The translations under genes were made by a program, and so were the position numbers. The notes under the pieces are model-generated. The model was not told where the DNA came from and did no database searches. It saw only the letters and a program-made list of their open reading frames with translations. From IMG/VR virus record IMGVR_UViG_3300011113_000415: a stretch of DNA of 64,000 nt, one strand, 5' to 3'. The DNA is from a virus (Duplodnaviria > Caudoviricetes). This document shows positions 1,837 to 14,931 of this stretch, piece after piece. Position 1 is the first letter of the stretch, and every line of letters starts with the position of its first letter.

Positions 1837-2102
1837 ACCGAGAAATTACACTCACACCCGAAGGTGGTCGATTCTATCGTGCCATGACATTCCACTGGGT
1901 CACGGTGGCCATATGTTTGCCGCCCTTGATGGCACTCATGATTGTGGCCATATTGAATCCCTTGTGGTTCCGTGACTCAATGTTTAACTGGGTTGAACGA
2001 CAAGTCAACGCATTCACACGTTGGCGCAACAATGTCAAATACCGCATCTATCTCAACTGTGACCCTGTAGTTTGGCACACCCTCAAAGGAGACTTGAAAT
2101 GA
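1833..2102 (+). CDS. hypothetical membrane protein
   Basis: ATGA overlap; hydrophobic segment WVTVAICLPPLMALMIVAIL. Confidence 0.7.
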   Translation: MNREITLTPEGGRFYRAMTFHWVTVAICLPPLMALMIVAILNPLWFRDSMFNWVERQVNAFTRWRNNVKYRIYLNCDPVVWHTLKGDLK

Positions 2103-2497
2103 CCATGCCCGCTGGAAAATATTACATTGGTGACTTGTGCTATGTTATGCACCCTGAATGGGACGAGGCTGTGAGCCTCATGTTCCCTGACAATCATTCG
2201 GGACGTGGTGTAGATGGCGAGTTTGTTCTACGAGATGGCCGCAGATTTGCAAATTTTGGAACTCGCTGGGGCGACGGTACTTACACAAGTAACATTAGAA
2301 CACGTCACCTAGTGGACTCTGGGTCAATTGGTTGCATACGTGTAGAAGACATTCGAGACAACACCTATGACAACATTGAAACCCTGGGTGCTGTGGTAGA
2401 GTTTGCACAGCCTTTTGAAGTGTCAGAAGATTCAGGCTTGATTTGCTTTGGTGCAGTGGAAATTGAAACCAACCCCGAATACGAATTTGATGAATAA
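2099..2497 (+). CDS. hypothetical phage protein (YYIGDLCYV...VDSGSIG)
   Basis: ATGA overlap, GGAG RBS. Confidence 0.8.
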   Translation: MTMPAGKYYIGDLCYVMHPEWDEAVSLMFPDNHSGRGVDGEFVLRDGRRFANFGTRWGDGTYTSNIRTRHLVDSGSIGCIRVEDIRDNTYDNIETLGAVVEFAQPFEVSEDSGLICFGAVEIETNPEYEFDE

Positions 2498-2798
2498 ACT
2501 AATCCGTGATGGCCGTGTAGCAGTACTGTATTCGCCTAAGTATGGAGGCGGATGGTATTCGTGGAATCCAAATCACCCTGAAATCTTGTTTGATCCTGCC
2601 ATAGTGGACTTTTTGGAAAAGAAACAACTTGAAGAATTGCAGGTATATGTTACACTGAAATATCCCGATGTTAGTCAATGGGGCTTGGAGGGATTAGCAA
2701 TTGAGTGGATTCCCCAAGGTGTTCATTTCCGGGTGAAGGAATACGATGGCAGCGAAAGCATTGAATTAAGAGACGGAGTAAACTGGATACAGGCTTGA
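2490..2798 (+). CDS. hypothetical phage protein (VAVLYSP.YGGGW...EYDGSE)
   Basis: ORF in operon. Confidence 0.8.
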   Translation: MNKLIRDGRVAVLYSPKYGGGWYSWNPNHPEILFDPAIVDFLEKKQLEELQVYVTLKYPDVSQWGLEGLAIEWIPQGVHFRVKEYDGSESIELRDGVNWIQA

Positions 2799-2823
2799 CA
2801 CTAAATAGATTTCCTAGTATAGT
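2795..2823 (+). promoter_or_regulatory. sigma70-type promoter for the isolated CAT tRNA
   Basis: TTGACA-N17-TATAGT ending 10 nt before the tRNA. Confidence 0.75.
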
Positions 2824-2832
2824 ATTTGATAC

Positions 2833-2918
2833 ACAACGGACGCCGTATTGGTCGCAGGCCCTAGACTCATAATCTAGTTCGAAAGACACTGTGGGTTCGA
2901 ATCCCACCCGTTGTACCA
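2833..2918 (+). tRNA. tRNA with CAT anticodon and class II (Leu-like) body
   Basis: acceptor ACAACGG/CCGTTGT, A73, CCA; anticodon stem CTAGA/TCTAG with loop CTCATAA; T arm GTGGG-TTCGAAT-CCCAC; 13-nt variable region. Confidence 0.85.
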
Positions 2919-2926
2919 CAATAACC

Positions 2927-3406
2927 ATGACCAAAGTAAATTCCAGTCCCCAACGTCACACATTCCAACACAGCAAAATTGAGTTGGAAGCAGTGCTGGA
3001 AGATATCCGCAATCAGGATCGCCTGAAATTGGCCGACCCAGAGTGGCAAAAAGACAATCTAGAGTACGACTTGCGTAGTACCAAATGGATCTGCGACCGA
3101 GTCAAAAGCACCAAGACCTATGCTCAAAACTTGTATGCGGCCCTGTGCAACAATGACTTTCAAAAGAACGCGGTATGGACCAGACTTGAAGACAAAGTAT
3201 GGGGTTGTAGTTGGCGACATGCTGGAGGTATCGTAGCCGACATGCGTGAAGAAGGTGACTACATTGATTGGTACTGTTCGGGCATACAAGGCGAGCCTGA
3301 TGAGTCCTGGATAGATCTAGGGCATGTTCCTGAAGGCACTGTTACAGACCAAATCCGTGAAGACTTGTTTCGCCTGGGATGGCTTGTGCTAGAGTCCCGA
3401 GACTAA
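2927..3406 (+). CDS. conserved hypothetical phage protein (YAQNLYAALCNN...CSWR.AGGIVA...DWYCSG)
   Basis: ORF; ATG at 2927. Confidence 0.85.
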   Translation: MTKVNSSPQRHTFQHSKIELEAVLEDIRNQDRLKLADPEWQKDNLEYDLRSTKWICDRVKSTKTYAQNLYAALCNNDFQKNAVWTRLEDKVWGCSWRHAGGIVADMREEGDYIDWYCSGIQGEPDESWIDLGHVPEGTVTDQIREDLFRLGWLVLESRD

Positions 3407-3413
3407 ATTTTTT

Positions 3414-3488
3414 CTATTGCCAACATAGATAATCTCAATAGCAAAAACCTATTTTTTGCTTGACTTCATTGATATATACTATTATAAT
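3414..3488 (+). promoter_or_regulatory. sigma70 promoter of ahpC with upstream OxyR-like ATAG-N7-CTAT repeats
   Basis: TTGACT 3460-65, N17, TATAAT 3483-88; CTAT-N7-ATAG 3414-28 and ATAG-N7-CTAT 3438-52. Confidence 0.6.
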
Positions 3489-3535
3489 AAACACTCAGTA
3501 CAAACACTGAGTTTCATTTCAACAAGGAGAAAAAT

Positions 3536-4075
3536 ATGAAAACTGTAGGCGATAAGTTAACCCCGTTTGCTGTCACTGGCGTCCGTCCTGGACAACCCGA
3601 AGACGCTTTTTATACCATTACCGACGAATCATTTGAAGGCAAGTGGAAAGTGATTGTGTACTATCCCAAAGACTTCACATTCGTTTGCCCCACCGAGATT
3701 GTGGCCTATGACAAGTTGGCTGATGACTTTGCTGACCGTGATGCAGTATTGCTAACAGGATCAACAGACAACGAGTTCTGCAAAGTGGCATGGCAAAAAT
3801 CGCATGATGACCTGCGCAAGATCACACATCATCAGTTTGCTGATACACAGCGTGGCGAGTTATCATTGATTGAACAACTGGGCGTGTTCTATGCGCCAGC
3901 AGGTGCCGCACTTCGTGCAACATTCATTGTTGATCCCAACAACGAAATCCAACACGTTACTGTCAACAACTTGAATGTTGGTCGCTCACCAGAAGAAACA
4001 CTCCGTGTGTTAGACGCTCTACAAACAGGCGAACTGTGTGCATGTAACCGTACAGTTGGTGGCGAAACCCTGTGA
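3536..4075 (+). CDS. ahpC: peroxiredoxin, alkyl hydroperoxide reductase C
   Basis: YPKDFTFVCPTE peroxidatic motif, GRSPEETLR, GELC; AAGGAG RBS. Confidence 0.95.
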   Translation: MKTVGDKLTPFAVTGVRPGQPEDAFYTITDESFEGKWKVIVYYPKDFTFVCPTEIVAYDKLADDFADRDAVLLTGSTDNEFCKVAWQKSHDDLRKITHHQFADTQRGELSLIEQLGVFYAPAGAALRATFIVDPNNEIQHVTVNNLNVGRSPEETLRVLDALQTGELCACNRTVGGETL

Positions 4076-4254
4076 AGATAAACTTCTTTAGTCGCGGCGT
4101 AGAAACTCTACGCCAACCTGATCGCAAACCTAGATGTTATGAACTAACCGAGCAAGAACGTCTGGACAAGATTCGTGAATGGAACAATCGTAATGTTTGG
4201 AACACTCCTGAGTTGGCTGAACAAGACCTTGAGTCCACTTATTACGGAGCATAA
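4072..4254 (+). CDS. hypothetical protein
   Basis: GTGA overlap with the ahpC stop. Confidence 0.6.
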   Translation: MKINFFSRGVETLRQPDRKPRCYELTEQERLDKIREWNNRNVWNTPELAEQDLESTYYGA

Positions 4255-4256
4255 TC

Positions 4257-4910
4257 ATGTTAGAAACCATTTGCGAAACATTGGTAGAAGCCTATCGTAG
4301 AAACTGGATTACCAGTCGTGATGGCAATGTCAGTATCCGTCATCACGACCGTGATCACTTTTATATCACCCCGTCGGGTGTGCGCAAGCAGACCATGCAA
4401 CCAGATCAGTTTAAGAAGATACGATTGGTCAACAGCATCAGTGCCACACCTCCGTTCTTGACACAGTCATGGCAAGAAGATGACTATACTGACATCAGTA
4501 GCAATCTAAAGCCTAGTGGTGAGATACCCTTGCACTTTGGTTTACAGCGAGCCATGGGCCAACATGCCAATGATGTGCGTGTGGTAGTACACTTGCATCC
4601 TACCTATTGTGTGGCGGCCATGCATGCTGGTATTGATTTGTCAACTATTGTGAATGACTTTCCTGAACTGAGTCGTTACACAAGGGTGGCGCCCAATGTG
4701 GGCGATGTGCCGCCTATCAGTCAAGAACTTGCAGATCGTTGTCACCAAAATCTACAACTGGATTCCGCGGGTAACATTGCCTACGATATTGTGGGCATCA
4801 AAGGTCACGGGGTGGTGGCCATTGATACCAGTCCCTGGCGTGCATTTGAGCATATAGAGAGGTTGGAACATATTTCAAAAATTGTATTATCATCAAGGAG
4901 ATTTCAATGA
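4257..4910 (+). CDS. class II aldolase/adducin family protein
   Basis: DGNVS, ITPSG, PSGEIPLH, VHLHP and GHG metal-binding motifs. Confidence 0.9.
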   Translation: MLETICETLVEAYRRNWITSRDGNVSIRHHDRDHFYITPSGVRKQTMQPDQFKKIRLVNSISATPPFLTQSWQEDDYTDISSNLKPSGEIPLHFGLQRAMGQHANDVRVVVHLHPTYCVAAMHAGIDLSTIVNDFPELSRYTRVAPNVGDVPPISQELADRCHQNLQLDSAGNIAYDIVGIKGHGVVAIDTSPWRAFEHIERLEHISKIVLSSRRFQ

Positions 4911-5422
4911 CAGCATGGGTTGATCAACTCAAAGAAGGCCTGCCCGAGTATGCCAAAGATACAAAGTTAAACTTGGACGCTGTGATCAAGCGTGGCACCA
5001 TTGATCCAGAACAAGCAGAAGCCATTGCCTTGGCGGCGGCTTTTGCTACAGGCAATGGTAAATTGGTCTCATTCATTCAAAGCAACGTTGCCAATGGGGT
5101 AGAGCGTGATGCGGCACTCACAGCCGGTTCAATCATGTCAATGAACAATACTTGGTATCCTTACGTTGAAATGGCGGAAGATCCTGCACTCAAAGGCTTG
5201 CCAGCACAACTTAGAATGAATGCCATTGCCACACACGGTGGTACTACAAAGGCTCGTTTTGAAGCCTACAGTCTAGCCGCTTCAATAATAGGCAAGTGCC
5301 ATTTCTGTGTCAAAGCACATTATGATACCTTGAAAAAGGAAGGCTACTCAGTTGAACAACTGAGAGACATTGGTCGTATTGCGTCTGTGATTGCCAGCGT
5401 TGCTCGTGTGCTGAACAGTTGA
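4907..5422 (+). CDS. ahpD: alkyl hydroperoxide reductase D (carboxymuconolactone decarboxylase family)
   Basis: SIIGKCHFCVKAH (CxxC..H) motif; same operon as ahpC. Confidence 0.85.
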   Translation: MTAWVDQLKEGLPEYAKDTKLNLDAVIKRGTIDPEQAEAIALAAAFATGNGKLVSFIQSNVANGVERDAALTAGSIMSMNNTWYPYVEMAEDPALKGLPAQLRMNAIATHGGTTKARFEAYSLAASIIGKCHFCVKAHYDTLKKEGYSVEQLRDIGRIASVIASVARVLNS

Positions 5423-5566
5423 GCAAGCGGCAAAACCAGTTGACCGGTGTTGGTTATTGAAACTGTTGCGAAGCACTTCACACTGAATCAAGGTCTCAAC
5501 GGGTCTTGATTCTTTGATCAAGGCATGATCGGCAGTGAAAATAAACAAAGTCAATATGTATTCCAT
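5348..5566 (-). CDS. possible small protein with hydrophobic N-terminus
   Basis: ORF convergent with and overlapping the ahpD end; N-terminus resembles other small ORFs here. Confidence 0.4.
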   Translation of the reverse strand: MEYILTLFIFTADHALIKESRPVETLIQCEVLRNSFNNQHRSTGFAACSTVQHTSNAGNHRRNTTNVSQLFN

Positions 5567-5644
5567 ATGATTATATATCCTACTAAACGTTGGAAATTGT
5601 GTTGTTTGTTATACAGAGTTCTTGGATTAATATAACCTGCAAAA

Positions 5645-5690
5645 CTAATACTTTTGTGTTATTGACCCAAATTGGATCCTGTGTTATAAT
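5645..5690 (+). promoter_or_regulatory. sigma70 promoter with degenerate upstream 7-4-7 palindrome
   Basis: TTGACC 5662-67, N17, TATAAT 5685-90; CTAATAC-TTTT-GTGTTAT. Confidence 0.7.
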
Positions 5691-5707
5691 TACAAACTAA
5701 GGAGAAT

Positions 5708-6178
5708 GTGATGCCATGGATCGAAAATGTAGCCGCCGCAGATGTGCCCCAAAGGCATCATCACGAGGCTGGCGACAATGCCATGCTGATCCAGATCATG
5801 GATCCGTGTCCCACCTGGTGGCCCGCTCCTGCACACAACTTTCGAGAAACACATCGTTTTGAATTTTTGGATGCAGAAGATGGTGATCGTTTTCCTGAAG
5901 AATGTTTGATCAGCGATGCCCAGGCTGAAAAAATTGTAGGCCTGTTGCAACATGCCTTGGCCAATCGCATGAACGTGGTTGTGCATTGTGTGGCAGGATT
6001 GTGTCGCTCAGGTGCAGTGGCTGAAGTTGGCGTGATGATGGGCTTTGATGAGTGTGAACGCACTCGCATACCCAACATTAGAGTCAAGCATAGGTTGATG
6101 AAGGCCTTGGGCTGGACCTATGATGCGAATGAACAGCCAGATGCAGAAGCCTGGCGTAAGATGAACCTAGATTATTAA
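5708..6178 (+). CDS. protein-tyrosine/dual-specificity phosphatase-like protein
   Basis: VHCVAGLCRS = HCxxGxxRS catalytic loop. Confidence 0.85.
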   Translation: MMPWIENVAAADVPQRHHHEAGDNAMLIQIMDPCPTWWPAPAHNFRETHRFEFLDAEDGDRFPEECLISDAQAEKIVGLLQHALANRMNVVVHCVAGLCRSGAVAEVGVMMGFDECERTRIPNIRVKHRLMKALGWTYDANEQPDAEAWRKMNLDY

Positions 6179-6188
6179 GGAGGCAATA

Positions 6189-6794
6189 ATGCCCGCAGTA
6201 TTTTTGACAAGCGACACGCACTTTGGACACGCAGGTGTCTGTCGCTTCACGCACCCAGATGATCCTGAAGTGAAATTGCGTCCCTGGACTGATCCAGACG
6301 AGATGGATGAGGCAATGATCAAGAAATGGAACGAACGTGTTCGTCCCAACGACAAGGTCTATCACTTGGGCGATGTTGTGATCAATCGCAAGGCTTTGAA
6401 GACCTTGGCACGTTTGAACGGCGACAAGGTGTTGATCCGTGGCAACCACGACATCTTTAGAGATGACGAGTATCGTGAATACTTTCGTGAATTGCGAGCC
6501 TACCATGTGATGAACGGCATGATCTTGAGTCACATTCCTGTGCATGAGGCTTCGTTGGGTCGCTTTGGAGTTAACATTCACGGACACTTGCATGCCACTC
6601 GTGTGAAAAAAGCACGTGGGGTTGACGCCAAGACCGGAACTGTTTTGTACAGCACTGAAATTGACCCACGCTACCATTGCGTGTGTGTGGAGCAAACTGA
6701 CTTTGCACCCATCTTGTTTGAAGATGTTATCAAACGGATTGAAGCAGAAGGTGGTAAAGTTGGCTTTCAAAATGGCAATGGACCCACAATGTAG
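6189..6794 (+). CDS. calcineurin-like metallophosphoesterase
   Basis: SDTHFGH, HLGD, GNHD, SHIP and HGHLH motifs. Confidence 0.92.
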   Translation: MPAVFLTSDTHFGHAGVCRFTHPDDPEVKLRPWTDPDEMDEAMIKKWNERVRPNDKVYHLGDVVINRKALKTLARLNGDKVLIRGNHDIFRDDEYREYFRELRAYHVMNGMILSHIPVHEASLGRFGVNIHGHLHATRVKKARGVDAKTGTVLYSTEIDPRYHCVCVEQTDFAPILFEDVIKRIEAEGGKVGFQNGNGPTM

Positions 6795-6797
6795 GGG

Positions 6798-6826
6798 TTG
6801 ACAAGGTATAAATAAACCTGTATAAT
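6798..6826 (+). promoter_or_regulatory. perfect consensus sigma70 promoter at the head of the tRNA array
   Basis: TTGACA-N17-TATAAT. Confidence 0.9.
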
Positions 6827-6835
6827 TAGCACATT

Positions 6836-6973
6836 ATGAAAACATTTGGACCTTATTCGTTATCAGTCCGTCCACAGAGTCTGGGCACATGCCCCGCCTT
6901 GTGGTCCACGATTGAGAACATGCATAATGGTCGTGAACTAGATCACAACAGGGTCCAAGGAGATCGGGAGTAG
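6836..6973 (+). CDS. putative 45-aa attenuator leader peptide MKTFGPYSLSVRPQSLGTCPALWSTIENMHNGRELDHNRVQGDRE
   Basis: ATG 9 nt after the -10 box (near-leaderless); all 20 amino acids and 37 distinct codons; followed by an intrinsic terminator. Confidence 0.7.
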   Translation: MKTFGPYSLSVRPQSLGTCPALWSTIENMHNGRELDHNRVQGDRE

Positions 6974-6999
6974 GTCAATACATACTCCAACTTCGAAGA

Positions 7000-7034
7000 C
7001 CCTGGAACTCGAAACTCCAGGGTTTTTTATTTTT
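7000..7034 (+). terminator. intrinsic terminator (attenuator 3:4 hairpin)
   Basis: CCCTGGA-actcgaaac-TCCAGGG followed by TTTTTTATTTTT. Confidence 0.85.
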
Positions 7035-7047
7035 AAAAAAGGAAAAA

Positions 7048-7203
7048 ATGACAGATACAAAATGTAAACGTCAGGCAGAGTACACGCGACAACACACACT
7101 AACTGAAGCAGATCTTCGCAGAATGATGGCAGAAAAATTAGAACGTGCTCGAGCGTGGCATAATGCCATGATCAAGCGACGAGTTCTTCAAGAGAACCGT
7201 TGA
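7048..7203 (+). CDS. small basic helical protein (51 aa), first gene after the attenuator
   Basis: AAGGA RBS; MTDTKCKRQAEYTRQHTLTEADLRRMMAEKLERARAWHNAMIKRRVLQENR. Confidence 0.6.
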   Translation: MTDTKCKRQAEYTRQHTLTEADLRRMMAEKLERARAWHNAMIKRRVLQENR

Positions 7204-7204
7204 T

Positions 7205-7390
7205 TCATGTAGTGGCGACAGGAAACGAGATCCTGCAACACACTTTAAACAGTTGCAAATGGGCGGCCTCGGGGATGGATTATCTTCTTGTAGACAAAAA
7301 AATCCGAGCGTATCGAAGCACTTTATCCTTCGGCTCTCTAGCACAAGGGCTAGAGCAAGGTAACCATAGAGTGCTTCGATACACGCATTC
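7205..7390 (+). ncRNA. structured intergenic RNA of unknown class
   Basis: hairpins CAGGA/TCCTG and TGCAAC/GTTGCA; 12-bp perfect stem 7311-7322/7370-7381 enclosing CTCTAGC/GCTAGAG. Confidence 0.4.
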
Positions 7391-7408
7391 ACAAGAGTGT
7401 GTTTATAT

Positions 7409-7486
7409 GCCCCTATGGACAAATTGGTAAAGTCATCTCTCTCAAAAGGAGAAGTCGTCTCTGTTCGAATCAGAGTAGGGGTACCA
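7409..7486 (+). tRNA. tRNA-Leu(CAA), short variable region
   Basis: cloverleaf, loop CTCAAAA, A73, CCA. Confidence 0.9.
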
Positions 7487-7490
7487 TCAT

Positions 7491-7582
7491 GGAAGATGAT
7501 GCAGGTGGGATGGTCCGCCGACGAGCCTTGAAAACTCGGTTCCGAGAAATCGGATGGGGTTCGACTCCTCCGTCTTCCGCCA
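7491..7582 (+). tRNA. tRNA-Ser(TGA)
   Basis: cloverleaf, long variable arm, G73, CCA. Confidence 0.92.
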
Positions 7583-7587
7583 ATTGT

Positions 7588-7664
7588 TGGGGATTCGCCA
7601 AGTTGGTTAAGGCATCGGATTTTGATTCCGACATGCATAGGTTCGAATCCTATATCCCCTACCA
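7588..7664 (+). tRNA. tRNA-Gln(TTG)
   Basis: TCGGA-TTTTGAT-TCCGA anticodon arm; U1:U72 mismatch; CCA. Confidence 0.9.
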
Positions 7665-7669
7665 AATTT

Positions 7670-8860
7670 TCAAACGTAAGGTTTGATCAATTCGTAAAAC
7701 TCAGGAAACGTAGATTCAAAAGACTGGTCGCGCATGCGATCTAAATCTTTTGTCATGTGCCAAAACCATTCCCAAGCATTTACATCATAGGATATGTATT
7801 CAGGTATACTTTGCATCATGAAATTAACTGTGGCAGTATCTTGAAGTATTTTTTCAGCGACTATTTTTTTCAATGACATTGGCATGTGTCGTATATCATA
7901 CTCAGGTGGACTGTAGACAAAATTACAGCCTACTATTATTCCAAATTTTGCTAAATTTTTTTTGATTTCATCAATATAAAATACATTTAGTGGTGTGACT
8001 GTGACACAGATGTTAATTTCTGTGTTGGGATGATTTGCGGTCCAGTCTTTGTAGCGTTGCAGATTTTCAAATACCACGTTAGCGTCAACTGGATATCTAA
8101 TATATTCAAGATGTTTGTGGACATGACTGTCTATGCTAATTCCAATTTTTACATATTTGTATTTGACCAGTGTGTCTAGATATGCTGGGTTCCATATTGT
8201 AGCATTGGTATGAAGTCTTAAACTAACTTTGGAACTCTTGCCAGCATCGGCCACTGTTTTTAATACACGAAACAACCCAGGTGTTAGGAATGGCTCACCA
8301 CCGTATATATCAAAAAACTCCAAGTTTGGTAACCATTGCTCCGTAGTCTCCCATATGGGATTATCTCTATCAAATGCAGATCTTATGCTTTCAAATCGTT
8401 TGGTATACTCTTGTTGTGTGCCTTTAAATCCATCGTGTTCTATCGCAAATTGATAGGCATTGTTATACCAACCTGTACTAGTGGCCGGATTGCACATTCT
8501 ACAGGCAAGATTACAAACGTTGCCAGGTTTCATAATCAGCACACGAGGCTGATCAGGCAATGACTCAAGATGACCAAACATGTGGTTGAATCGCTGTCTA
8601 CTACTGATTTTTCCACTGGCTTCTAGGTCCTGGCAAGGTCTGCAACTTTCAATGGTTTTTCCGTGGTCTAATCCAGCAGCCAACATTTTTCTAGTGGGAC
8701 TAGACCAGGCTTCAGCCAAGGTATTTTTGTCAGCAAACAGCACCTGTTGTTGACGATTGGTAAAACTCCAATTGTTTATGTTGCAGGCACAGAAGTCACC
8801 ATCGTTTTGAATGGCCAGGCCCATATGTGGCATCACACAAAAAGTGTCAGATTTAAGCAT
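7670..8860 (-). CDS. radical SAM protein with N-terminal twitch/SPASM-like domain
   Basis: CNLACRMC, GGEPF, N-terminal FCVMPH..CAC..CRPC; antisense within the tRNA array. Confidence 0.9.
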   Translation of the reverse strand: MLKSDTFCVMPHMGLAIQNDGDFCACNINNWSFTNRQQQVLFADKNTLAEAWSSPTRKMLAAGLDHGKTIESCRPCQDLEASGKISSRQRFNHMFGHLESLPDQPRVLIMKPGNVCNLACRMCNPATSTGWYNNAYQFAIEHDGFKGTQQEYTKRFESIRSAFDRDNPIWETTEQWLPNLEFFDIYGGEPFLTPGLFRVLKTVADAGKSSKVSLRLHTNATIWNPAYLDTLVKYKYVKIGISIDSHVHKHLEYIRYPVDANVVFENLQRYKDWTANHPNTEINICVTVTPLNVFYIDEIKKNLAKFGIIVGCNFVYSPPEYDIRHMPMSLKKIVAEKILQDTATVNFMMQSIPEYISYDVNAWEWFWHMTKDLDRMRDQSFESTFPEFYELIKPYV

Positions 8861-8909
8861 CCTTTATTTAACTGCTAGATATTGTGTTGTAAAAATACAA
8901 CAATCAGCA

Positions 8910-8938
8910 TTGACCAATAATTGGTAAACTGCTACAAT
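8910..8938 (+). promoter_or_regulatory. sigma70 promoter
   Basis: TTGACC-N17-TACAAT; upstream inverted repeat TGTTGTA-AAAA-TACAACA. Confidence 0.75.
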
Positions 8939-8944
8939 AGAACT

Positions 8945-9180
8945 TAACAAAGCAACAAAGTCGATCGAGACTGGTTGCACTAGATCTTTAAAATACTCAA
9001 AGAGGTTACCAGACCCGTTAGAGGCATTGGTAGAAGTGAACAAGGCATCGGCGGGTGCCCACTTGCTATCAGTCATGAAATAGGCTCTCACTCCCCCTCG
9101 GGAGGTGATCCGGTAGAAGCGGCGGACCGTCTGGCAGTAATGACCGTGGTGACTTGGCCTCGCAAGCCAAGCAGAATAAG
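8945..9180 (+). ncRNA. multi-stem structured RNA of unknown class
   Basis: own promoter; helices 9009-14/9129-34, 9026-33/9066-73, 9044-49/9054-59, 9088-95/9100-08, 9153-58/9166-71. Confidence 0.6.
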
Positions 9181-9212
9181 ATCCACAATGGTTCCTCAAT
9201 GTACAAAAACAT

Positions 9213-9288
9213 GCTCCGTTCGTCTATCGGTTAGGACACCGGCCTTTCACGTCGGTAAGGAGGGGTTCGATTCCCCCACGGAGTACCA
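9213..9288 (+). tRNA. tRNA-Glu(TTC)
   Basis: cloverleaf, CCA. Confidence 0.93.
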
Positions 9289-9291
9289 TTG

Positions 9292-9445
9292 TTTTTATAG
9301 TCAAGCATCGATAAGGTACCGTGTTGGGACGCCAACACTATTCGGGTCAAAGCGGCCGGCGACTGATCCTGACATAACTGCCTCGGCTTTGGAACTGTTA
9401 GCGCAGGACTCCTAAATTGGCATTCTCGGTGCTTGACTATAAAAA
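9292..9445 (+). ncRNA. structured RNA closed by a 20-bp terminal helix
   Basis: 9292-9311 pairs with 9426-9445 (one G-U); internal hairpin GTGTTGG-gacg-CCAACAC. Confidence 0.55.
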
Positions 9446-9448
9446 TTT

Positions 9449-9526
9449 GGTCTGTTAGTATAGTTGGCCTAATACGCCTGCCTGTCACGCAGGAGATCAG
9501 GGATTCGAATTCCCTACAGACCGCCA
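9449..9526 (+). tRNA. tRNA-Asp(GTC)
   Basis: cloverleaf, G73, CCA. Confidence 0.93.
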
Positions 9527-9532
9527 AGTTTT

Positions 9533-9595
9533 GAAGCCACATCGCCTGGGCACTTCTCTCAGCAATGAGACACTAGGTCCTGCAACCGTGGCTTC
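9533..9595 (+). promoter_or_regulatory. structured 5' element upstream of feoA
   Basis: nested helices GAAGCCAC/GTGGCTTC, CCTGG/CTAGG, TCTCA-GCAA-TGAGA. Confidence 0.4.
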
Positions 9596-9614
9596 TCCCT
9601 TTATGGAGTTGACT

Positions 9615-9857
9615 ATGACACTACACAATTTGACAGCCGGTGGTGTTGCTATCATTGAAACTGTCGACGGCAACTACAGTGCAAGGTTGAAATCAATGGG
9701 ATTTCGATCAGGACAAATGGTTCAAGTTCTTAGAAGAACCGCTCATGTCATGCATGTTCGTGTTGGTAGCACCGAGTGGGCCATACGTGATCGCGATGCT
9801 GAGTCAGTAAAAATTATTCCGGAAAACCCGAGCAAGGTGCATGGGCGTGACTGTTAA
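9615..9857 (+). CDS. feoA: FeoA (SH3-like ferrous iron transport A) domain protein
   Basis: RLKSMGFRSGQMVQVLRR..MHVRVGSTEWAIR matches the FeoA pattern; GGAG RBS; stop lies inside tRNA-Asn. Confidence 0.8.
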   Translation: MTLHNLTAGGVAIIETVDGNYSARLKSMGFRSGQMVQVLRRTAHVMHVRVGSTEWAIRDRDAESVKIIPENPSKVHGRDC

Positions 9858-9896
9858 TCACTGGTTAGAAGGGTTCGATTCCCTTATCCGGAGCCA
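9818..9896 (+). tRNA. tRNA-Asn(GTT)
   Basis: TCCGGA/TCCGGA acceptor, loop CTGTTAA, G73, CCA. Confidence 0.88.
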
Positions 9897-9900
9897 AATT

Positions 9901-9975
9901 GCCTCTGTAGTATAATGGATAATACACTGGCCTACGAAGCCGGCGATTGTGGTTCAATTCCCCACAGAGGCTCCA
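9901..9975 (+). tRNA. tRNA-Arg(ACG)
   Basis: cloverleaf, CCA. Confidence 0.9.
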
Positions 9976-9976
9976 T

Positions 9977-10050
9977 GCCCCTTTAGTTTAAAAGTAAAAC
10001 AGACGCTTGATAAGCGTCAGTCGGAGGAGCGTTACCTCCCGGGGGTACCA
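9977..10050 (+). tRNA. tRNA-Ile(GAT), non-canonical D and T loops
   Basis: GACGC-TTGATAA-GCGTC; T loop AGCGTTA; CCA. Confidence 0.85.
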
Positions 10051-10071
10051 TGTTTTTAAAAGGAGAATGCG

Positions 10072-10212
10072 ATGAAACGCAAGATAACCGTCCGGCAACG
10101 TAACCCCTTCGTTGCATTGGCCATGAAACGTAAAGCGGGTAGCCATCGAAAGACTAACAAAGCAGTTCGTCGATGGGACAAAGTAAGGGATCGTAATTCA
10201 AAGGTAGAATAG
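10072..10212 (+). CDS. small very basic protein (46 aa; RNPFVALAMKRKAGSHRKTNKAVRR)
   Basis: AAGGAG RBS; stop codon inside tRNA-Lys. Confidence 0.65.
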   Translation: MKRKITVRQRNPFVALAMKRKAGSHRKTNKAVRRWDKVRDRNSKVE

Positions 10213-10260
10213 TGGGCTTTTAACTCATCTATCCCAGTTCGAGTCTGGGCGGTCCTACCA
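10187..10260 (+). tRNA. tRNA-Lys(TTT)
   Basis: cloverleaf, loop CTTTTAA, CCA. Confidence 0.9.
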
Positions 10261-10289
10261 TATAAAAATATATTGTTTCAGTGTATTTC

Positions 10290-10333
10290 TATATGGTGTC
10301 AATAGTCTAGTGGCAAAACCGCGGGTTGTGATT
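10290..10333 (+). repeat. duplicated 5' half of tRNA-His (direct repeat with 12257-12300)
   Basis: 44-nt repeat with 2 mismatches, ending in the anticodon loop. Confidence 0.9.
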
Positions 10334-10348
10334 TAGATATGCTCGAAA

Positions 10349-10918
10349 CTATGCGATTATTTGTTGACTTAGTTCTTTTAATTTAGCCACTGTAGGAGCA
10401 TCATCTTTGAAACCGATTTGTAAGGCAGTTCTTGATCCGTCAACCATGTTTTCAACACTGTGCAAACATTGTGTGCTGAAAAATACCCACTGCCCAACTT
10501 GAAAGCGATGACGACATATTTCAATTAAATTACTGTAGTCTGTGCCAAAGGTAAAAGGTACCCTAATGTAAGGTTGGTTTTTTTCACGCCAGTGTACAGT
10601 ATCAACTTCGGAACCGCCGGTTTCGAATAACCACATTAACGCCCAATAACGCGACTGATCGGTATGCGGAGGTGATATTCCTTTGCCCATAACACTGATG
10701 CCAATATCTTGATTATGATCACTGCCTACATTTTCATCTACCCAGTCTTGGATTCTTTTACTAACTTTATATTTTGTATAATCCATTGGTAAAATTTCTT
10801 TACCATCTCTTATGGTTATCCTAGGTGTACACTTTATGTCATAAGTGTCATTTCCTAAAAAAAGTTGTTCAGGAAATGGGGGCAAGTCAGGGAAAAAAAC
10901 TAATTCATCTTTGGTCAT
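10349..10918 (-). CDS. 2OG-Fe(II) oxygenase/cupin-like protein
   Basis: PHTD...HSV...RTALQ (HxD..H..R) pattern; GAGG RBS. Confidence 0.6.
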   Translation of the reverse strand: MTKDELVFFPDLPPFPEQLFLGNDTYDIKCTPRITIRDGKEILPMDYTKYKVSKRIQDWVDENVGSDHNQDIGISVMGKGISPPHTDQSRYWALMWLFETGGSEVDTVHWREKNQPYIRVPFTFGTDYSNLIEICRHRFQVGQWVFFSTQCLHSVENMVDGSRTALQIGFKDDAPTVAKLKELSQQIIA

Positions 10919-10987
10919 AAAAGCCTCTCTCAACTATTTATCCTGCAAAATCTGCATCTTCAAAATCGCGTATATTAAATATAAATT

Positions 10988-12223
10988 ATGCTTACAAAAA
11001 ACATCTATTTACTGTATCCAGCAGGTTATTCAGGCAACTTCATCAAATGGGCCATTAGTGCCAGTGACATAGATTTGCAAAAAATCACAGTCAATGACCC
11101 TATAAACAAAACGTTTAGTCACAAATACGGTGGGCCCGGGACAACACATTTAGAGGACAGAGTACCCACACATCAAGACATTTATAGGCATCTTATTTGG
11201 ATGGCATACAATCGTCCGGTAGCCAATCAAATCTATATACTTTTTACAACTTCACAATCAATGAGTCAAACCTTAGACGGAATTTTGAGCACAGATCCTG
11301 ATCCATTGATTATTATCATACATGACAACAGAGATAGAGACACAAGAACCTACGGAAATTTAAATGCTATAACCAAATGGCCTACCTACATGCACACTAG
11401 ACAAACTCTTTGGAACTTTGAAAAACAATCAAGATTAGAATACAGTTTGATGACAAATCATGACTTTTTCAATTGTGAAAATGATATGAATTTGAGAAAT
11501 ATGATTGCTCTGAAGAGTTTTGCATGGCTAGTAGAACTTGATCCGTTTGACGATCAGTCAAAAAATCAATACCTTGAGGATTTGTTAAAAAATAAACTTT
11601 GGTTTGATACGAGACAGCAATATCAACCACATGAATTGCTGCCGCACATGTATGCGGTACATGAAGCACTGCCAAATAATGCAGTTCATCAACTGAGTTG
11701 TAAAGATGTGGTCAGTGAAAATTTTCCAAATATTTTATATGATATTTTAAAGACCAGTGGTTGTTGTAGTGAATTTGATATATCACCAGTCAAACAGATA
11801 CATGAAAAGTATATCTCTGCTCAGAAAAATTTAGATTGGTTCTCTTCAATTGCGCATTGGAGAAAAACTGGTTATCTTGATCAATACCTAGTAAGTCATG
11901 CAGTCATTCAAGGCTTTGTAATTCAAGAAATTTTAGAAAAGTTGAAATTCATTGATTACATCAAGTTTGATCCACATTACAAATGGTACGATTTTTATCA
12001 GGCTGTTCGTGACCAGGGTTGGCCGGATTGTGATCAAGAAAAAGATTTTTTGACATTGCCTTTACATATTAGAGAAGAATTAATTACAAAATTTAATTAC
12101 AAATTTGAACCTATACAGGTACAAAATAATCAAATTTTAAAAGCATTAGAAAATTGGGAATCAATGTCTATACAAGAAATCAATGATTTGTATCTACAAA
12201 GTGATGTTTGGTCTATTTATTAA
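10988..12223 (+). CDS. hypothetical protein, possible P-loop/sulfotransferase-like N-terminus, with C-terminal FY..RD..WPDC module
   Basis: long AT-rich ORF; YPAGYSGNF; WYDFYQAVRDQGWPDC. Confidence 0.75.
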   Translation: MLTKNIYLLYPAGYSGNFIKWAISASDIDLQKITVNDPINKTFSHKYGGPGTTHLEDRVPTHQDIYRHLIWMAYNRPVANQIYILFTTSQSMSQTLDGILSTDPDPLIIIIHDNRDRDTRTYGNLNAITKWPTYMHTRQTLWNFEKQSRLEYSLMTNHDFFNCENDMNLRNMIALKSFAWLVELDPFDDQSKNQYLEDLLKNKLWFDTRQQYQPHELLPHMYAVHEALPNNAVHQLSCKDVVSENFPNILYDILKTSGCCSEFDISPVKQIHEKYISAQKNLDWFSSIAHWRKTGYLDQYLVSHAVIQGFVIQEILEKLKFIDYIKFDPHYKWYDFYQAVRDQGWPDCDQEKDFLTLPLHIREELITKFNYKFEPIQVQNNQILKALENWESMSIQEINDLYLQSDVWSIY

Positions 12224-12261
12224 ACAAAAAACATCGTAATTCCTTAATTTATCAATTATAT

Positions 12262-12336
12262 GGTGTCCATAGTTTAGTGGCAAAACCGCGGGTTGTGATT
12301 CCGCTATCATGAGTTCGATTCTCATTGGATACCCCA
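12262..12336 (+). tRNA. tRNA-His(GTG)
   Basis: G-1:C73, loop TTGTGAT, CCA. Confidence 0.92.
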
Positions 12337-12337
12337 G

Positions 12338-12412
12338 GGATGAGTAGCATAATGGTAGTGCGCCTCCTTCATACGGAGTCAGGTGGTAGTTCGATTCTAC
12401 CTTCATCCACCA
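12338..12412 (+). tRNA. tRNA CAT (elongator Met or Ile2)
   Basis: cloverleaf, loop TTCATAC, paired 1:72, CCA. Confidence 0.88.
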
Positions 12413-12415
12413 TGA

Positions 12416-12613
12416 TTATTCGCCGGAGCGGTTGGCCACTTCTTGTGCGTCACCCATGACTTCAGGCGGGGCACCTGGCACATTGTTTGTGGTTGGGTCC
12501 AGCAACATTTCATTTGCCGCAAGTGCCGCAATTAGGTAATGTACTTTTTTCTCAAGATCCCGAAGTGCGCTGTTGGGATCAATACGTGTGTCTCTAGCAA
12601 AAAAATTGTCCAT
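12416..12613 (-). CDS. hypothetical protein
   Basis: AAGGA RBS; antisense insert in the tRNA array. Confidence 0.65.
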   Translation of the reverse strand: MDNFFARDTRIDPNSALRDLEKKVHYLIAALAANEMLLDPTTNNVPGAPPEVMGDAQEVANRSGE

Positions 12614-12646
12614 AATAGTTTCCTTTGTAGAGTATTCAACACGTTT

Positions 12647-12730
12647 GCCCCGGTGGTGTAATGGCAGCCACGATGGTCTTAGAAACCATTGCTTAACAGC
12701 GTGTCGGTTCGAGTCCGACCTGGGGCACCA
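12647..12730 (+). tRNA. tRNA-Leu(TAG)
   Basis: cloverleaf, long variable arm, A73, CCA. Confidence 0.93.
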
Positions 12731-12736
12731 TGATAT

Positions 12737-12810
12737 GGCTCGTTAGTATAGTGGCAGTGCGGAAGTCTCCAAAACTTCTAGCGGTGGTTCGATTCCATCA
12801 CGAGTCGCCA
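12737..12810 (+). tRNA. tRNA-Trp(CCA)
   Basis: GAAGT-CTCCAAA-ACTTC, G73, CCA. Confidence 0.92.
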
Positions 12811-12817
12811 AAAATTT

Positions 12818-12892
12818 GGGCTGTTGGTATAGTTGGGAACACAGTGGCTTTGCAAGCCTCAGTCCCCGGTTCGAACCCGGGACGGTCCACCA
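12818..12892 (+). tRNA. tRNA-Ala(TGC)
   Basis: G3:U70 pair, A73, CCA. Confidence 0.92.
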
Positions 12893-12900
12893 TAAAATTC

Positions 12901-12988
12901 GGAGGTATCGCATAGCGGTCGATTGCACGGGACTGTAAATCCTGCGCCCTTAGGGGCCTCGGTGGTTCAAATCCATCTACCTCCACCA
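12901..12988 (+). tRNA. tRNA-Tyr(GTA)
   Basis: cloverleaf with long variable arm, CCA. Confidence 0.93.
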
Positions 12989-12991
12989 CTT

Positions 12992-13065
12992 GCCTCGTTA
13001 GTTTAATGGTAGAACTCCGTCTTTACACGGCGGTTACGGCAGTTCGATTCTGTCACGAGGTACCA
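12992..13065 (+). tRNA. tRNA-Val(TAC)
   Basis: cloverleaf, CCA. Confidence 0.93.
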
Positions 13066-13094
13066 TTGACACATAATTAAATATTGTATATAAT
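13066..13094 (+). promoter_or_regulatory. internal consensus sigma70 promoter
   Basis: TTGACA-N17-TATAAT. Confidence 0.85.
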
Positions 13095-13109
13095 ACAACA
13101 AGAAACAAT

Positions 13110-13187
13110 GCAACGGTGGCAGAGTGGTCCAATGCATGGGATTGCAAATCCCAAAAACCGCTGGTTCAAATCCAGCCCGTTGCTCCA
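13110..13187 (+). tRNA. tRNA-Cys(GCA)
   Basis: cloverleaf, U73, CCA. Confidence 0.93.
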
Positions 13188-13189
13188 TA

Positions 13190-13432: not shown

Positions 13433-13439
13433 CAAATAC

Positions 13440-13514
13440 CGCGGGATGGAGAAGCGGTAACTCGTCAGGCTCATAACCTGAAGATCGGCGGTTCGATTCC
13501 GCCTCCCGCAACCA
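13440..13514 (+). tRNA. initiator tRNA-fMet(CAT)
   Basis: C1:A72 mismatch, loop CTCATAA, CCA. Confidence 0.9.
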
Positions 13515-13517
13515 ACT

Positions 13518-13591: not shown

Positions 13592-13596
13592 CAATT

Positions 13597-14157: not shown

Positions 14158-14160
14158 CTC

Positions 14161-14926: not shown

Positions 14927-14931
14927 AGTTG

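What the first reader, a model, noticed from the sequence alone, without database searches (positions are those of the whole stretch)
6798..7034. Pan-codon leader-peptide attenuator at the head of a phage tRNA array: candidate general tRNA-depletion sensor
Seen: a perfect TTGACA-N17-TATAAT promoter, an ATG 9 nt after the -10 box, and a 45-codon ORF (6836-6973). The ORF uses all 20 amino acids and 37 distinct codons; 34 of the first 37 are different, against about 28 expected from uniform random draws. It has four different Ser, four Leu, three Pro, three Gly and three Arg codons. Mutually exclusive helices follow the classic 1:2 / 2:3 / 3:4 plan: TTGGACCTT 6846-54 with AGGGTCCAA 6950-58 (9 bp); CAGGGTC 6949-55 with GACCCTG 6998-7004 (antiterminator); CCCTGGA/TCCAGGG plus a U tract (terminator). 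A hairpin GGAGTA/TACTCC (6967-72/6983-88) covers the stop codon. Established: trp/his-type attenuators use leader peptides rich in one amino acid, and hosts deplete tRNAs with anticodon nucleases during infection. Inference: this leader samples almost every isoacceptor, so a stall on any depleted tRNA frees segment 2 and allows read-through into the tRNA array, while full translation terminates.
Basis: partly seen in the sequence, partly recalled or inferred. Interest (0 to 1): 0.93.

Follow-up and report, generated by a model that had tools for sequence, protein, structure and literature searches.

The report
All-amino-acid leader attenuator before phage tRNAs
A strong promoter, a tiny gene with no ribosome-binding site that uses nearly every amino acid once, and a stop signal that folds two ways sit at the start of the tRNA gene cluster in a family of uncultured giant lake phages. 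It looks like a switch that turns on the phage tRNAs when protein synthesis slows, but this has not been tested.

Summary

A promoter-only scan, with no requirement for an ORF, found 73 complete homologous elements in lake and river metagenomes. They fall into 19 peptide clusters with a median identity of 27%. There is one copy in each complete 343-353 kb phage genome.

- **ORF:** every copy keeps a 30-50 codon ORF that starts 6-10 nt after the -10 box, so no Shine-Dalgarno sequence is possible. It ends inside a hairpin. Stops per frame are 0, 233 and 195.
- **Switch:** the last ~9 codons pair with the 5' arm of an intrinsic terminator, and this pairing covaries. The two folds are close in energy.
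- **Position:** 38 of 44 copies with enough flank have a same-strand tRNA within 1 kb downstream. Almost none have one upstream.
- **Composition:** the peptides use amino acids unusually evenly, 19.0 kinds in about 41 codons against 16.6 expected, and 10 of 19 clusters have all 20. Synonymous codons are also over-diverse. A neighbouring small protein shows no such effect.

The element heads an operon of a conserved ~55-aa protein, a new ~200-nt structured RNA, and tRNAs. No RNA or ribosome data exist. I found no published equivalent. Another window of this scan had already flagged the same stretch.

The parts
6798..6826 (+). Sigma-70-type promoter: TTGACA, 17-nt spacer, TATAAT. The spacer ATAAATAAA is conserved in the family.
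   Evidence: One search gives a 12/12 match. Searches recover the same promoter in all family members, but it was the search pattern, so its conservation there is by construction.
6833..6835 (+). Predicted transcription start, about A6833, leaving 0-3 nt before the AUG (a leaderless or near-leaderless mRNA).
   Evidence: Inferred from the spacing to the -10 box. In the family the ATG lies 6-10 nt after the -10 box, often as ATGATG. No transcription-start data exist.
6836..6973 (+). Leader ORF of 45 codons with no Shine-Dalgarno sequence, all 20 amino acids and 37 distinct codons.
   Evidence: The ORF is kept in 73 of 73 homologues, with 0 stops in frame against 233 and 195 in the other frames. 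pN/pS is 0.3-0.7.
6846..6854 (+). It is specific to this window.
   Evidence: Present in the minimum-free-energy fold. Not conserved.
6872..6904 (+). Central hairpin inside the ORF: CCACAG 6872-77 with CTTGTGG 6898-6904, tip GGGC 6883-86 with GCCC 6891-94. It holds the only positionally fixed residue, Trp (TGG 6902-04).
   Evidence: fold. Related hairpins were seen by eye in other subfamilies. Its role as a pause hairpin is inference.
6949..6955 (+). Segment 2: the 5' strand of the antiterminator, lying in codons 38-40, 16-22 nt before the stop codon.
6967..6988 (+). Inner hairpin of the antiterminator. Its 5' arm holds the stop codon TAG 6971-6973.
   Evidence: Conserved in all subfamilies.
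6998..7004 (+). Segment 3: the 3' strand of the antiterminator. It shares 6 nt with the terminator's 5' arm.
6999..7035 (+). Intrinsic terminator: stem 6999-7006 with 7016-7023, 9-nt loop, then the U tract TTTTTTATTTTT.
   Evidence: In the family 95.9% of cells are paired and 5 pairs show double changes.
7048..7203 (+). First gene downstream: a 51-aa basic protein ('Y') with an AAGGA ribosome-binding site and no promoter of its own.
   Evidence: A conserved family in 41 of 68 loci, with motif L[TD]x6L[IL]xxK[IL]xRA. No Pfam, PHROG or PDB match.
7205..7408 (+). Conserved ~200-nt structured RNA ('X') that abuts the first tRNA. It is not in Rfam.
   Evidence: Homologues follow the element in at least 40 of 68 loci. 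18 of 30 predicted pairs show compensatory changes. No Rfam match.
7409..7664 (+). tRNA-Leu(CAA) 7409-7486 and tRNA-Gln(UUG) 7588-7664: the tRNAs reachable by read-through before the convergent radical-SAM gene.
   Evidence: The radical-SAM gene is on the minus strand at 7670-8860.

Best explanation
This is a ribosome-mediated transcription attenuator that couples expression of a phage tRNA operon to how well the infected cell is translating.

**Proposed sequence of events**
1. RNA polymerase starts at the consensus promoter. The transcript begins 0-3 nt before an AUG, so ribosomes must load by the leaderless route and follow the polymerase closely.
2. The last ~9 codons and the stop codon form the 5' arm of a long hairpin. 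Its 3' arm contains most of the 5' arm of an intrinsic terminator, so this hairpin is an antiterminator.
3. If a ribosome reaches the stop codon in time, it holds that arm open, the terminator folds and transcription ends at about 7030.
4. If no ribosome has loaded, or one is delayed anywhere in the ORF, the antiterminator forms first. The polymerase then reads on into the small protein Y, the structured RNA X, and tRNA-Leu and tRNA-Gln.

Because a delay at any codon gives read-through, the whole ORF is the sensor. The leader appears to be under selection to contain every amino acid about once and to vary its synonymous codons. That fits a sensor for a shortage of any charged tRNA, or for a general translation failure, feeding back on phage tRNA supply.

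**Shown by sequence and comparison:** the conserved promoter-ORF-hairpin-terminator layout, the covarying alternative helices, the position before tRNA arrays, and the composition bias.

**Inferred:** that the ORF is translated, the direction of the switch, and the trigger.
For: **Family.** There are 73 complete homologues from a promoter-only pattern scan, in 19 clusters with a median peptide identity of 27%. There is one copy per complete 343-353 kb genome.

**ORF.**
- Every copy with the 3' module keeps the frame open: 0 in-frame stops against 233 and 195 in the other frames.
- Indels are in frame.
- pN/pS is 0.3-0.7, so the frame is kept more strictly than the sequence.

**Switch.**
- In folds of the nascent RNA, the terminator's 5' arm pairs with positions -27 to 0 from the stop codon in most of the 68 distinct sequences.
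- Full-length minimum-energy folds split 41 terminator to 24 antiterminator.
- Cognate arms are 7.1 kcal/mol more stable than non-cognate ones (p = 8e-6).
- The helix extends 3.58 pairs beyond the invariant GGG:CCC core, against 2.35 for permuted partners (P < 2e-4).
- 89% of cells are paired, against 25-49% when the partner is slid.
- RNAalifold chooses the antiterminator for the subfamily.
- The terminator covaries.

**Context.**
- 38 of 44 copies have a same-strand tRNA within 1 kb, with up to 16 tRNAs in 3 kb and almost none upstream.
- Protein Y has no promoter of its own, so it needs read-through.
- The 5' hairpins of RNA X appear by eye to covary across a promoter-like site. If so, RNA X is transcribed from upstream.

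**Composition.**
- 19.0 distinct amino acids against 16.6 for random draws from the family's own composition (z = 7.6). Ten of 19 clusters have all 20, against 0.35 expected.
- The excess holds against stop-free shuffles (t-test p = 8e-5) and against the other two frames (p = 7e-4).
- Synonymous codons are over-diverse (z = 4.85).
- Rare residues change position between clusters.
- Protein Y from the same loci gives z = -0.4.

**Background.** Leader-peptide attenuators register the decoding speed of single codons (PMC4046918). Leaderless sensory short ORFs exist in mycobacteria (10.1101/834739). Phage tRNAs counter host tRNA-cleaving defences (PMC10264068, PMC11555353).
Against: - There is no direct evidence of a transcript start, of termination at ~7030, or of ribosomes on the ORF. 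The runs labelled RNA-Seq are probably DNA, and one contig starts upstream of the promoter.
- The host is unknown, so the efficiency of leaderless translation is unknown. Other genes of this phage use Shine-Dalgarno sites.
- One codon per amino acid should be far less sensitive than the tandem codon runs of known attenuators.
- Some family members have interrupted U tracts, such as GGGGTTCGTCTTT.
- In this window read-through reaches only two tRNAs before a convergent gene. Later array segments have their own perfect promoters at 13066 and 14718.
- pN/pS below 1 and a fixed Cys/Trp core leave room for a function of the peptide itself.
- The 19 clusters are homologous, so they are not fully independent samples for the composition test.
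Confidence: 0.58

Rival explanations
1. It is a translation-sensing attenuator as described, but it reports only whether ribosomes load and run at all, for example availability of ribosomes able to initiate without a leader, or host shut-off. The codon and amino-acid evenness would then be a by-product rather than a designed pan-tRNA sensor.
For: All the structural and context evidence applies. The leaderless start is unique among the phage genes examined. Single codons give weak sensitivity, which rests on established knowledge of the trp, his and leu leaders.
Against: The composition bias is strong and frame-specific. It persists despite positional turnover of residues and is absent from the neighbouring small protein. 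A by-product does not explain this.
Confidence: 0.18
2. It is an ordinary stand-alone small-protein gene with its own promoter and a leaky terminator. The 45-aa peptide acts in trans, and the hairpin over the stop codon serves mRNA stability or translation control.
For: pN/pS is 0.3-0.7. Some changes between close relatives are synonymous. The Cys/Trp core is conserved. The unit has a promoter, an ORF and a terminator.
Against: Peptide identity between clusters has a median of 27%, with only Trp fixed in position. The even use of all 20 amino acids is unlike the neighbouring real small protein Y, the control tested. The ORF's 3' end specifically pairs with the terminator arm, and the pairing covaries. 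Protein Y downstream depends on read-through. There is no Pfam match and no homologue in the protein search.
Confidence: 0.12
3. It is the classic three-helix, trp-type attenuator that the first reader proposed. Segment 1 (6846-54) sequesters segment 2, so an untranslated leader terminates, and only a ribosome stalled early frees segment 2.
For: In this window the 9-bp helix is in the minimum-energy fold. The terminator plus 1:2 state is 4.1 kcal/mol below the antiterminator state.
Against: The helix is not conserved: family mean z = -0.02 and 2 of 59 at p <= 0.05. It is absent in the closest relatives. In this window it reaches only p = 0.07 against shuffles. The nascent RNA up to 7015 already prefers the antiterminator.
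Confidence: 0.08
4. It is a non-coding riboswitch or small RNA whose terminator/antiterminator choice is set by a ligand, a protein or a tRNA. The ORF would be incidental.
For: The RNA is strongly structured (z = -3.85). There is no Shine-Dalgarno sequence.
Against: The frame is open in 73 of 73 copies, from an ATG at a fixed distance from the promoter to a stop at a fixed place in the hairpin, against 195-233 stops in the other frames. The diversity is frame-specific. There is no Rfam family match, including T-box.
Confidence: 0.04

Closest known systems
Leader-peptide transcription attenuators of amino-acid biosynthesis operons (trp, his, leu, thr, pheA, ilv)
   Same: A short translated ORF lies upstream of an intrinsic terminator. 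An alternative helix overlaps the terminator's 5' arm, and its partner strand lies where ribosome position decides the fold. A ribosome at the stop codon favours termination, and a delayed ribosome favours read-through.
   Different: There is no run of codons for one amino acid; instead nearly every amino acid appears once. There is no conserved 1:2 (anti-antiterminator) helix. The start is leaderless rather than Shine-Dalgarno-led. The element is viral, and the regulated genes are tRNAs, a structured RNA and a small protein rather than biosynthetic enzymes.
Polycysteine leaderless short ORFs of mycobacteria, the 'Cys ribulon' (10.1101/834739)
   Same: A leaderless sensory short ORF is the first cistron of an operon, and ribosome pausing in it controls the downstream genes.
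   Different: Those ORFs sense one amino acid through a Cys tract. They act on translation by unmasking a ribosome-binding site. This element has a terminator/antiterminator pair and no enriched codon.
T-box riboswitches
   Same: A terminator/antiterminator leader that responds to the tRNA charging state.
   Different: T-box leaders bind one uncharged tRNA directly and are not translated. No T-box match was found, and this element has a conserved ORF.
Attenuator-derived small RNA and peptide, rnTrpL and peTrpL, of Sinorhizobium (PMC6614838, PMC7968998)
   Same: The terminated leader is a ~200-nt structured RNA with a terminator hairpin, so it could have a second life in trans, as could its peptide.
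   Different: There is no evidence here for trans targets. This is mentioned only as a possibility.

Membership tests
Ribosome-mediated (leader-peptide) transcription attenuator | A short ORF in the leader that is maintained as an open frame | tested here: met
   73 of 73 homologues have it. In-frame stops are 0, against 233 and 195 in the other frames.
Ribosome-mediated (leader-peptide) transcription attenuator | An intrinsic terminator between the leader ORF and the regulated genes | tested here: met
   Stem 6999-7006 with 7016-7023 plus a U tract. In the family 95.9% of cells are paired, with compensatory changes. Some members have weak U tracts.
Ribosome-mediated (leader-peptide) transcription attenuator | An antiterminator helix mutually exclusive with the terminator, with one strand inside or next to the ORF | tested here: met
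   6949-55 pairs with 6998-7004. The partner lies -27 to 0 from the stop codon in most of the 68 distinct sequences, and the pairing covaries.
Ribosome-mediated (leader-peptide) transcription attenuator | Regulatory codons: a run or enrichment of codons for the sensed amino acid | tested here: not met
   No amino acid is enriched as a run. The opposite holds, with significantly even use of all 20.
Ribosome-mediated (leader-peptide) transcription attenuator | A 1:2 helix (anti-antiterminator or pause hairpin) as in trp | tested here: not met
   It is present only in this window (p = 0.07). Family mean z = -0.02, and it is absent from the consensus fold.
Ribosome-mediated (leader-peptide) transcription attenuator | Translation of the leader and condition-dependent termination shown experimentally | not testable with these tools
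   The only runs labelled RNA are probably DNA and exist only as contigs.
Leaderless sensory short ORFs (mycobacterial type) | The start codon lies at or within a few nt of the transcript's 5' end, with no Shine-Dalgarno sequence | tested here: inconclusive
   The ATG lies 6-10 nt after the -10 box in all members, so a Shine-Dalgarno sequence is impossible. The transcription start itself is inferred, not mapped.
Leaderless sensory short ORFs (mycobacterial type) | A structure that masks the ribosome-binding site and is relieved by a paused ribosome (translational control) | tested here: not met
   The ribosome-binding site of protein Y (7037-7047) lies beyond the terminator and is unpaired in the folds. 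tRNAs need no ribosome-binding site.
T-box riboswitch and other Rfam leaders | A match to the family covariance model | tested here: not met
   There was no match at the gathering threshold across the window. Nothing relevant appeared at E <= 10 in 6600-7450.

The most novel reading that the evidence does not exclude
A virus-encoded 'pan-tRNA' attenuator. The leaderless leader peptide is kept by selection to contain every amino acid about once, with varied synonymous codons. A shortage of any charged tRNA would then switch on the phage's own tRNA operon. Such a shortage could come from host anticodon nucleases, starvation or phage-induced host shut-off. The operon also carries a conserved small protein and a new structured RNA. 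This would be demand-driven feedback control of a viral translation back-up system.
Probability: 0.42. Interest if true: 0.92.

Novelty: new variant of a known kind. Interest (0 to 1): 0.82.

Why it matters
How phages regulate their tRNA arrays is, to my knowledge, essentially unknown. Recent work sees these tRNAs as counter-measures to tRNA-cleaving host defences (PMC10264068, PMC11555353).

An attenuator whose sensor is 'one of each amino acid' would be a new design principle for leader peptides: a generalist sensor rather than a specialist one. It would also be, as far as I could find, the first attenuator reported to control tRNA genes.

It would show that huge phages monitor the translation state of the cell and adjust their own tRNA supply.

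The element is short (about 240 bp) and carries a consensus sigma-70 promoter. Its predictions are clear-cut: start-codon knockout, stem swaps, depletion of single tRNAs, and recoded leaders. It can therefore be tested with reporters even though the phages are uncultured. The same locus also yields two further unknowns, protein Y and RNA X.

Tried and rejected
**Searches that found nothing**
- DNA searches of deposited phage genomes with the element, two other family members and RNA X gave no match. The family is so far known only from metagenomes.
- A protein search with the 45-aa peptide found no homologue. Pfam gave no hit for the peptide or protein Y. PHROGs and PDB profile searches for protein Y gave nothing credible.
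- Rfam gave nothing for the element or RNA X.
- No whole genome is held for this window.
- My literature searches found no description of such a system.

**Ideas considered and dropped**
- *RiPP (ribosomally made, modified peptide) precursor paired with the nearby radical-SAM/SPASM gene (7670-8860, minus strand).* Rejected because that gene is absent next to the element in relatives such as L083.
- *An arrest peptide of the TnaC type.* Unlikely, because by inspection the distance from the fixed Trp to the stop codon varies widely between clusters, from about 6 to over 20 residues.
- *Coding potential of the RNA X region (the apparent 'MxYLxVDKKIR').* Rejected because the apparently synonymous changes appear to be compensatory base pairs.

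**Inconclusive**
- Expression evidence. The runs labelled RNA-Seq hold fragments covering 6765-7028 and 6996-7146. They are probably DNA and exist only as contigs.
- I could not confirm the E. coli boxA sequence from the two papers opened. That comparison rests on my own knowledge.
Full report
**1. The observation**

- The promoter is TTGACA (6798-6803), a 17-nt spacer and TATAAT (6821-6826). It is one of only four perfect 12/12 matches in 2000-17000.
- ATG 6836 follows the -10 box by 9 nt, with no Shine-Dalgarno sequence.
- The ORF 6836-6973 encodes 45 residues. It has all 20 amino acids and 37 distinct codons, and 34 of the first 37 codons differ. There are four Ser, four Leu, three Pro, three Gly and three Arg codons.
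- The helices 6846-54 with 6950-58, 6949-55 with 6998-7004, the terminator 6999-7006 with 7016-7023 plus its U tract, and the hairpin 6967-72 with 6983-88 over the stop codon are all real.
- The 203-nt transcript folds better than its shuffles (z = -3.85).

**2. It is a family**

The window has no DNA relative among deposited phages. No whole genome is held for it.

The flanking phosphoesterase gene led to many IMG/VR contigs of up to 364 kb. Two of those loci (three records) carried the element at the same place, and one carried it elsewhere.

I then scanned IMG/VR and the metagenome collection with the promoter alone, putting no requirement on what follows. This gave 117 distinct hits.
- 73 have a complete element, and 4 more are cut by contig ends.
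- The rest are unrelated AT-rich promoters with ordinary ribosome-binding sites.
- The 73 give 68 distinct 3' modules. Their peptides fall into 19 clusters at 60% identity, with a median pairwise identity of 27%.
- Two essentially complete genomes of 353 and 344 kb, one with terminal repeats, each hold exactly one copy.
- The sources are lake, river and other freshwater metagenomes.

**3. The ORF is kept open, but the peptide is only loosely constrained**
- Every sequence that has the 3' module has an uninterrupted frame. It runs from an ATG 6-10 nt after the -10 box to a stop in the 5' arm of a hairpin.
- Stops in the three frames number 0, 233 and 195.
- Indels between relatives are in frame.
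- pN/pS within clusters is 0.3-0.7, with only a slight excess of third-position changes.

This is what one expects if being translated matters more than the product. Only one Trp is fixed in position. Its codon lies in the 3' arm of a central hairpin (6872-6904), so RNA constraints may explain it.

**4. A conserved two-way switch**

I folded each RNA up to the point just before the terminator's 3' arm emerges.
- In most of the 68 sequences, most nucleotides of the terminator's 5' arm pair with a partner lying -27 to 0 nt from the stop codon.
- For completed transcripts the minimum-energy fold is the terminator in 41 and the antiterminator in 24. That balance is the mark of a bistable element.
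- Among the 19 clusters, the two arms of the antiterminator hairpin fit their own partner 7.1 kcal/mol better than partners from other clusters (Wilcoxon p = 8e-6).
- Anchored on the invariant GGG:CCC core, the helix continues for 3.58 pairs, against 2.35 +/- 0.20 with permuted partners (P < 2e-4). The pair types alternate, for example C:G 45, U:A 15 and U-G 5 at the second position.
- On tool-made alignments, the window's subfamily has 89% of cells paired, against 25-49% when the partner is slid.
- The terminator has 95.9% of cells paired and five pairs with double changes.
- RNAalifold on the full-length subfamily alignment itself chose the antiterminator.
- The MAFFT alignment of the remaining subfamilies is less clean: 65.5% of cells are paired, and the same fraction at a shift of +1. 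I therefore rely on the per-sequence folds for those.

**5. The 1:2 helix is not part of the family design**
- The best pairing of segment 2 with the upstream ORF is no better than with shuffled upstream sequence. Mean z is -0.02, and 2 of 59 reach p <= 0.05. For the window, z = -1.56 and p = 0.07.
- The closest relatives lack TTGGACC.
- In the window the helix does tip the balance. The terminator plus 1:2 state is -67.4 kcal/mol and the antiterminator state is -63.3. With segment 1 masked, the values are -58.1 (antiterminator) and -57.3 (terminator).

It may modulate this copy, but the family works with two states.

**6. Where it sits and what it controls**
- Of 44 members with at least 700 nt of downstream sequence, 38 have a same-strand tRNA starting within 1 kb. 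There are up to 16 tRNAs in the next 3 kb.
- In the 3 kb upstream there are almost none.

Between the terminator and the first tRNA lie two conserved parts.
- **Protein Y.** This small protein (51 aa, 7048-7203) has a ribosome-binding site and starts 8-31 nt after the U tract. It has no promoter of its own. It is present in 41 of 68 loci, and 38 of these link into one sequence cluster and 3 into a second. Its motif is L[TD]x6L[IL]xxK[IL]xRA, and it has no known relatives.
- **RNA X.** This ~200-nt structured RNA (7205-7408) is present in at least 40 of 68 loci. It follows either protein Y or the terminator directly, and it abuts the first tRNA. Of 30 predicted pairs, 18 show compensatory changes. 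It is not in Rfam.

Protein Y cannot be made without read-through. By eye, the first hairpins of RNA X covary across a promoter-like sequence; RNAalifold did not pick them up. If that holds, RNA X must also be transcribed from upstream.

In this window, read-through would reach protein Y, RNA X, tRNA-Leu(CAA) and tRNA-Gln(UUG). It would then meet the convergent radical-SAM gene. Later tRNAs have their own promoters.

**7. The 'pan-codon' claim holds up, unexpectedly well**

For the window:
- 37 distinct codons compares with 28.7 +/- 2.5 in 45-codon windows of this phage's long ORFs (0 of 20,000 reach 37).
- It compares with 32.2 in stop-free shuffles of the same nucleotides (p = 0.03).

For the 19 cluster representatives:
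- Mean z against stop-free shuffles is +1.19 for codons (t-test p = 8e-5) and +1.67 for amino acids.
- Frame 0 has 32.2 distinct triplets, against 28.8 and 29.8 in the other frames (p = 7e-4).
- Against random draws from the family's own pooled composition, the peptides hold 19.0 distinct amino acids in about 41 residues. The expectation is 16.6 (z = 7.6).
- Ten of 19 have all 20, against 0.35 expected and a maximum of 3 in 5,000 simulations.
- Cys, Trp and His occur in 19 of 19 and Tyr in 18 of 19, with mean counts near one.
- When an amino acid recurs, it uses different synonymous codons more often than pooled usage predicts (453 against 414.9 +/- 7.9; z = 4.85).
- Apart from Trp, the rare residues sit at very different positions in different clusters (SD of 7-13 residues). 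So presence is maintained, not position.
- Protein Y from the same loci shows no such effect (z = -0.4, and none of the 15 has all 20).

Caveat: the clusters share ancestry, so a phylogeny-aware test is still needed.

**8. Mechanism**

The best reading is a two-state ribosome-mediated attenuator.
- A ribosome that reaches the stop codon covers or separates the 5' arm of the antiterminator. Segment 2 lies 3-27 nt upstream of the stop. The terminator then forms.
- A ribosome that is absent, or delayed anywhere in the ORF, lets the antiterminator form first, and the polymerase reads through.
- Every codon is therefore a sensing position, which gives a rationale for a leader that samples all amino acids and many isoacceptors.
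- Leader-peptide attenuators are known to register the decoding speed of single codons (PMC4046918). Leaderless sensory ORFs are known in mycobacteria (10.1101/834739). Phage tRNAs are known to offset tRNA-targeting defences (PMC10264068, PMC11555353).

Translation of the ORF, the direction of the switch and the natural trigger remain inference.

**9. What is missing**

The only runs labelled RNA-Seq that hold the region are probably DNA and are kept as contigs. One piece begins upstream of the promoter and another spans the terminator. The host is unknown. The nearest phage relatives of two genes are uncultured huge phages and phages of alphaproteobacteria and cyanobacteria. The window also carries a permuted tmRNA.

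**10. Comparison and novelty**

It works like a leader-peptide attenuator and meets three structural criteria of that class: an ORF, a terminator and an overlapping antiterminator. It fails two: there is no codon run and no 1:2 helix. It shares the leaderless start with the mycobacterial Cys short ORFs but not their translational mechanism.

I found no report of an attenuator before tRNA genes, or of a leader selected for amino-acid evenness. I rate it a new variant of a known kind.

An earlier first-stage note of this scan (e1-5373970) flagged the same stretch in an overlapping window. Note e1-5373981 flagged the 51-aa ORF. Neither is independent evidence.

Noticed in passing
window 7205-7408 (homologues include L085:1090-1287 and L100:6749-6976, minus strand): A conserved ~200-nt structured RNA ('X') lies between the attenuator (or protein Y) and the first tRNA in at least 40 of 68 loci. 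Of 30 predicted pairs, 18 show compensatory changes. It has a hairpin with loop AACGAG, a hairpin with loop CACUNUAAACA, and a conserved GGGCGG. A long helix encloses a variable insert that in L100 and L133 looks like a tRNA T-arm. It is not in Rfam.
   Followed up: partly
window 7048-7203: The 51-aa basic ORF right after the terminator belongs to a conserved family present in 41 of 68 loci. Lys30 and Arg33 are invariant, and the motif is L[TD]x6L[IL]xxK[IL]xRA. It has no promoter of its own and no Pfam, PHROG or PDB relative.
   Followed up: partly
L108, L095, L145 and L160: the ~30 nt between the terminator and tRNA-Gly. Also window ~7249-7261.: In one subfamily the spacer reads CGCTCTTT(A/T)ACAAT. 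To my knowledge this matches the E. coli rrn boxA sequence (UGCUCUUUAACAA). The second hairpin loop of RNA X (CACUUUAAACA) resembles it. This suggests Nus-factor antitermination of the tRNA operon after read-through. I could not verify the boxA consensus from the papers I opened.
   Followed up: partly
window 13066-13094, 14718-14746, 16652-16680, 2795-2823: The other perfect or near-perfect sigma-70 promoters each sit 10-16 nt upstream of a stable-RNA gene (tRNA-Cys, tRNA-Ser, the tmRNA and tRNA-Met). Protein genes have weaker promoters and 5' untranslated regions with Shine-Dalgarno sites.
   Followed up: no
window 16690-17273: Rfam finds a permuted (two-piece) tmRNA at 80 bits. The match spans 584 nt for a 213-position model, so it has a long intervening segment.
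   Followed up: no
window 9977-10047 and 15992-16064: Rfam finds two further tRNA-like genes (43.9 and 43.6 bits) that ARAGORN did not report.
   Followed up: no
window 7670-8860 (minus strand): A radical-SAM/SPASM protein gene converges on the first two tRNAs. It is absent at this place in the relative L083, where the promoter equivalent to window 8910 follows the element almost directly.
   Followed up: partly
window 6891-6895 and 7019-7023: In the subfamily consensus fold, the conserved GCCCC inside the ORF pairs with the GGGGU of the terminator's 3' arm when the antiterminator is formed. This could further lock the read-through state.
   Followed up: no
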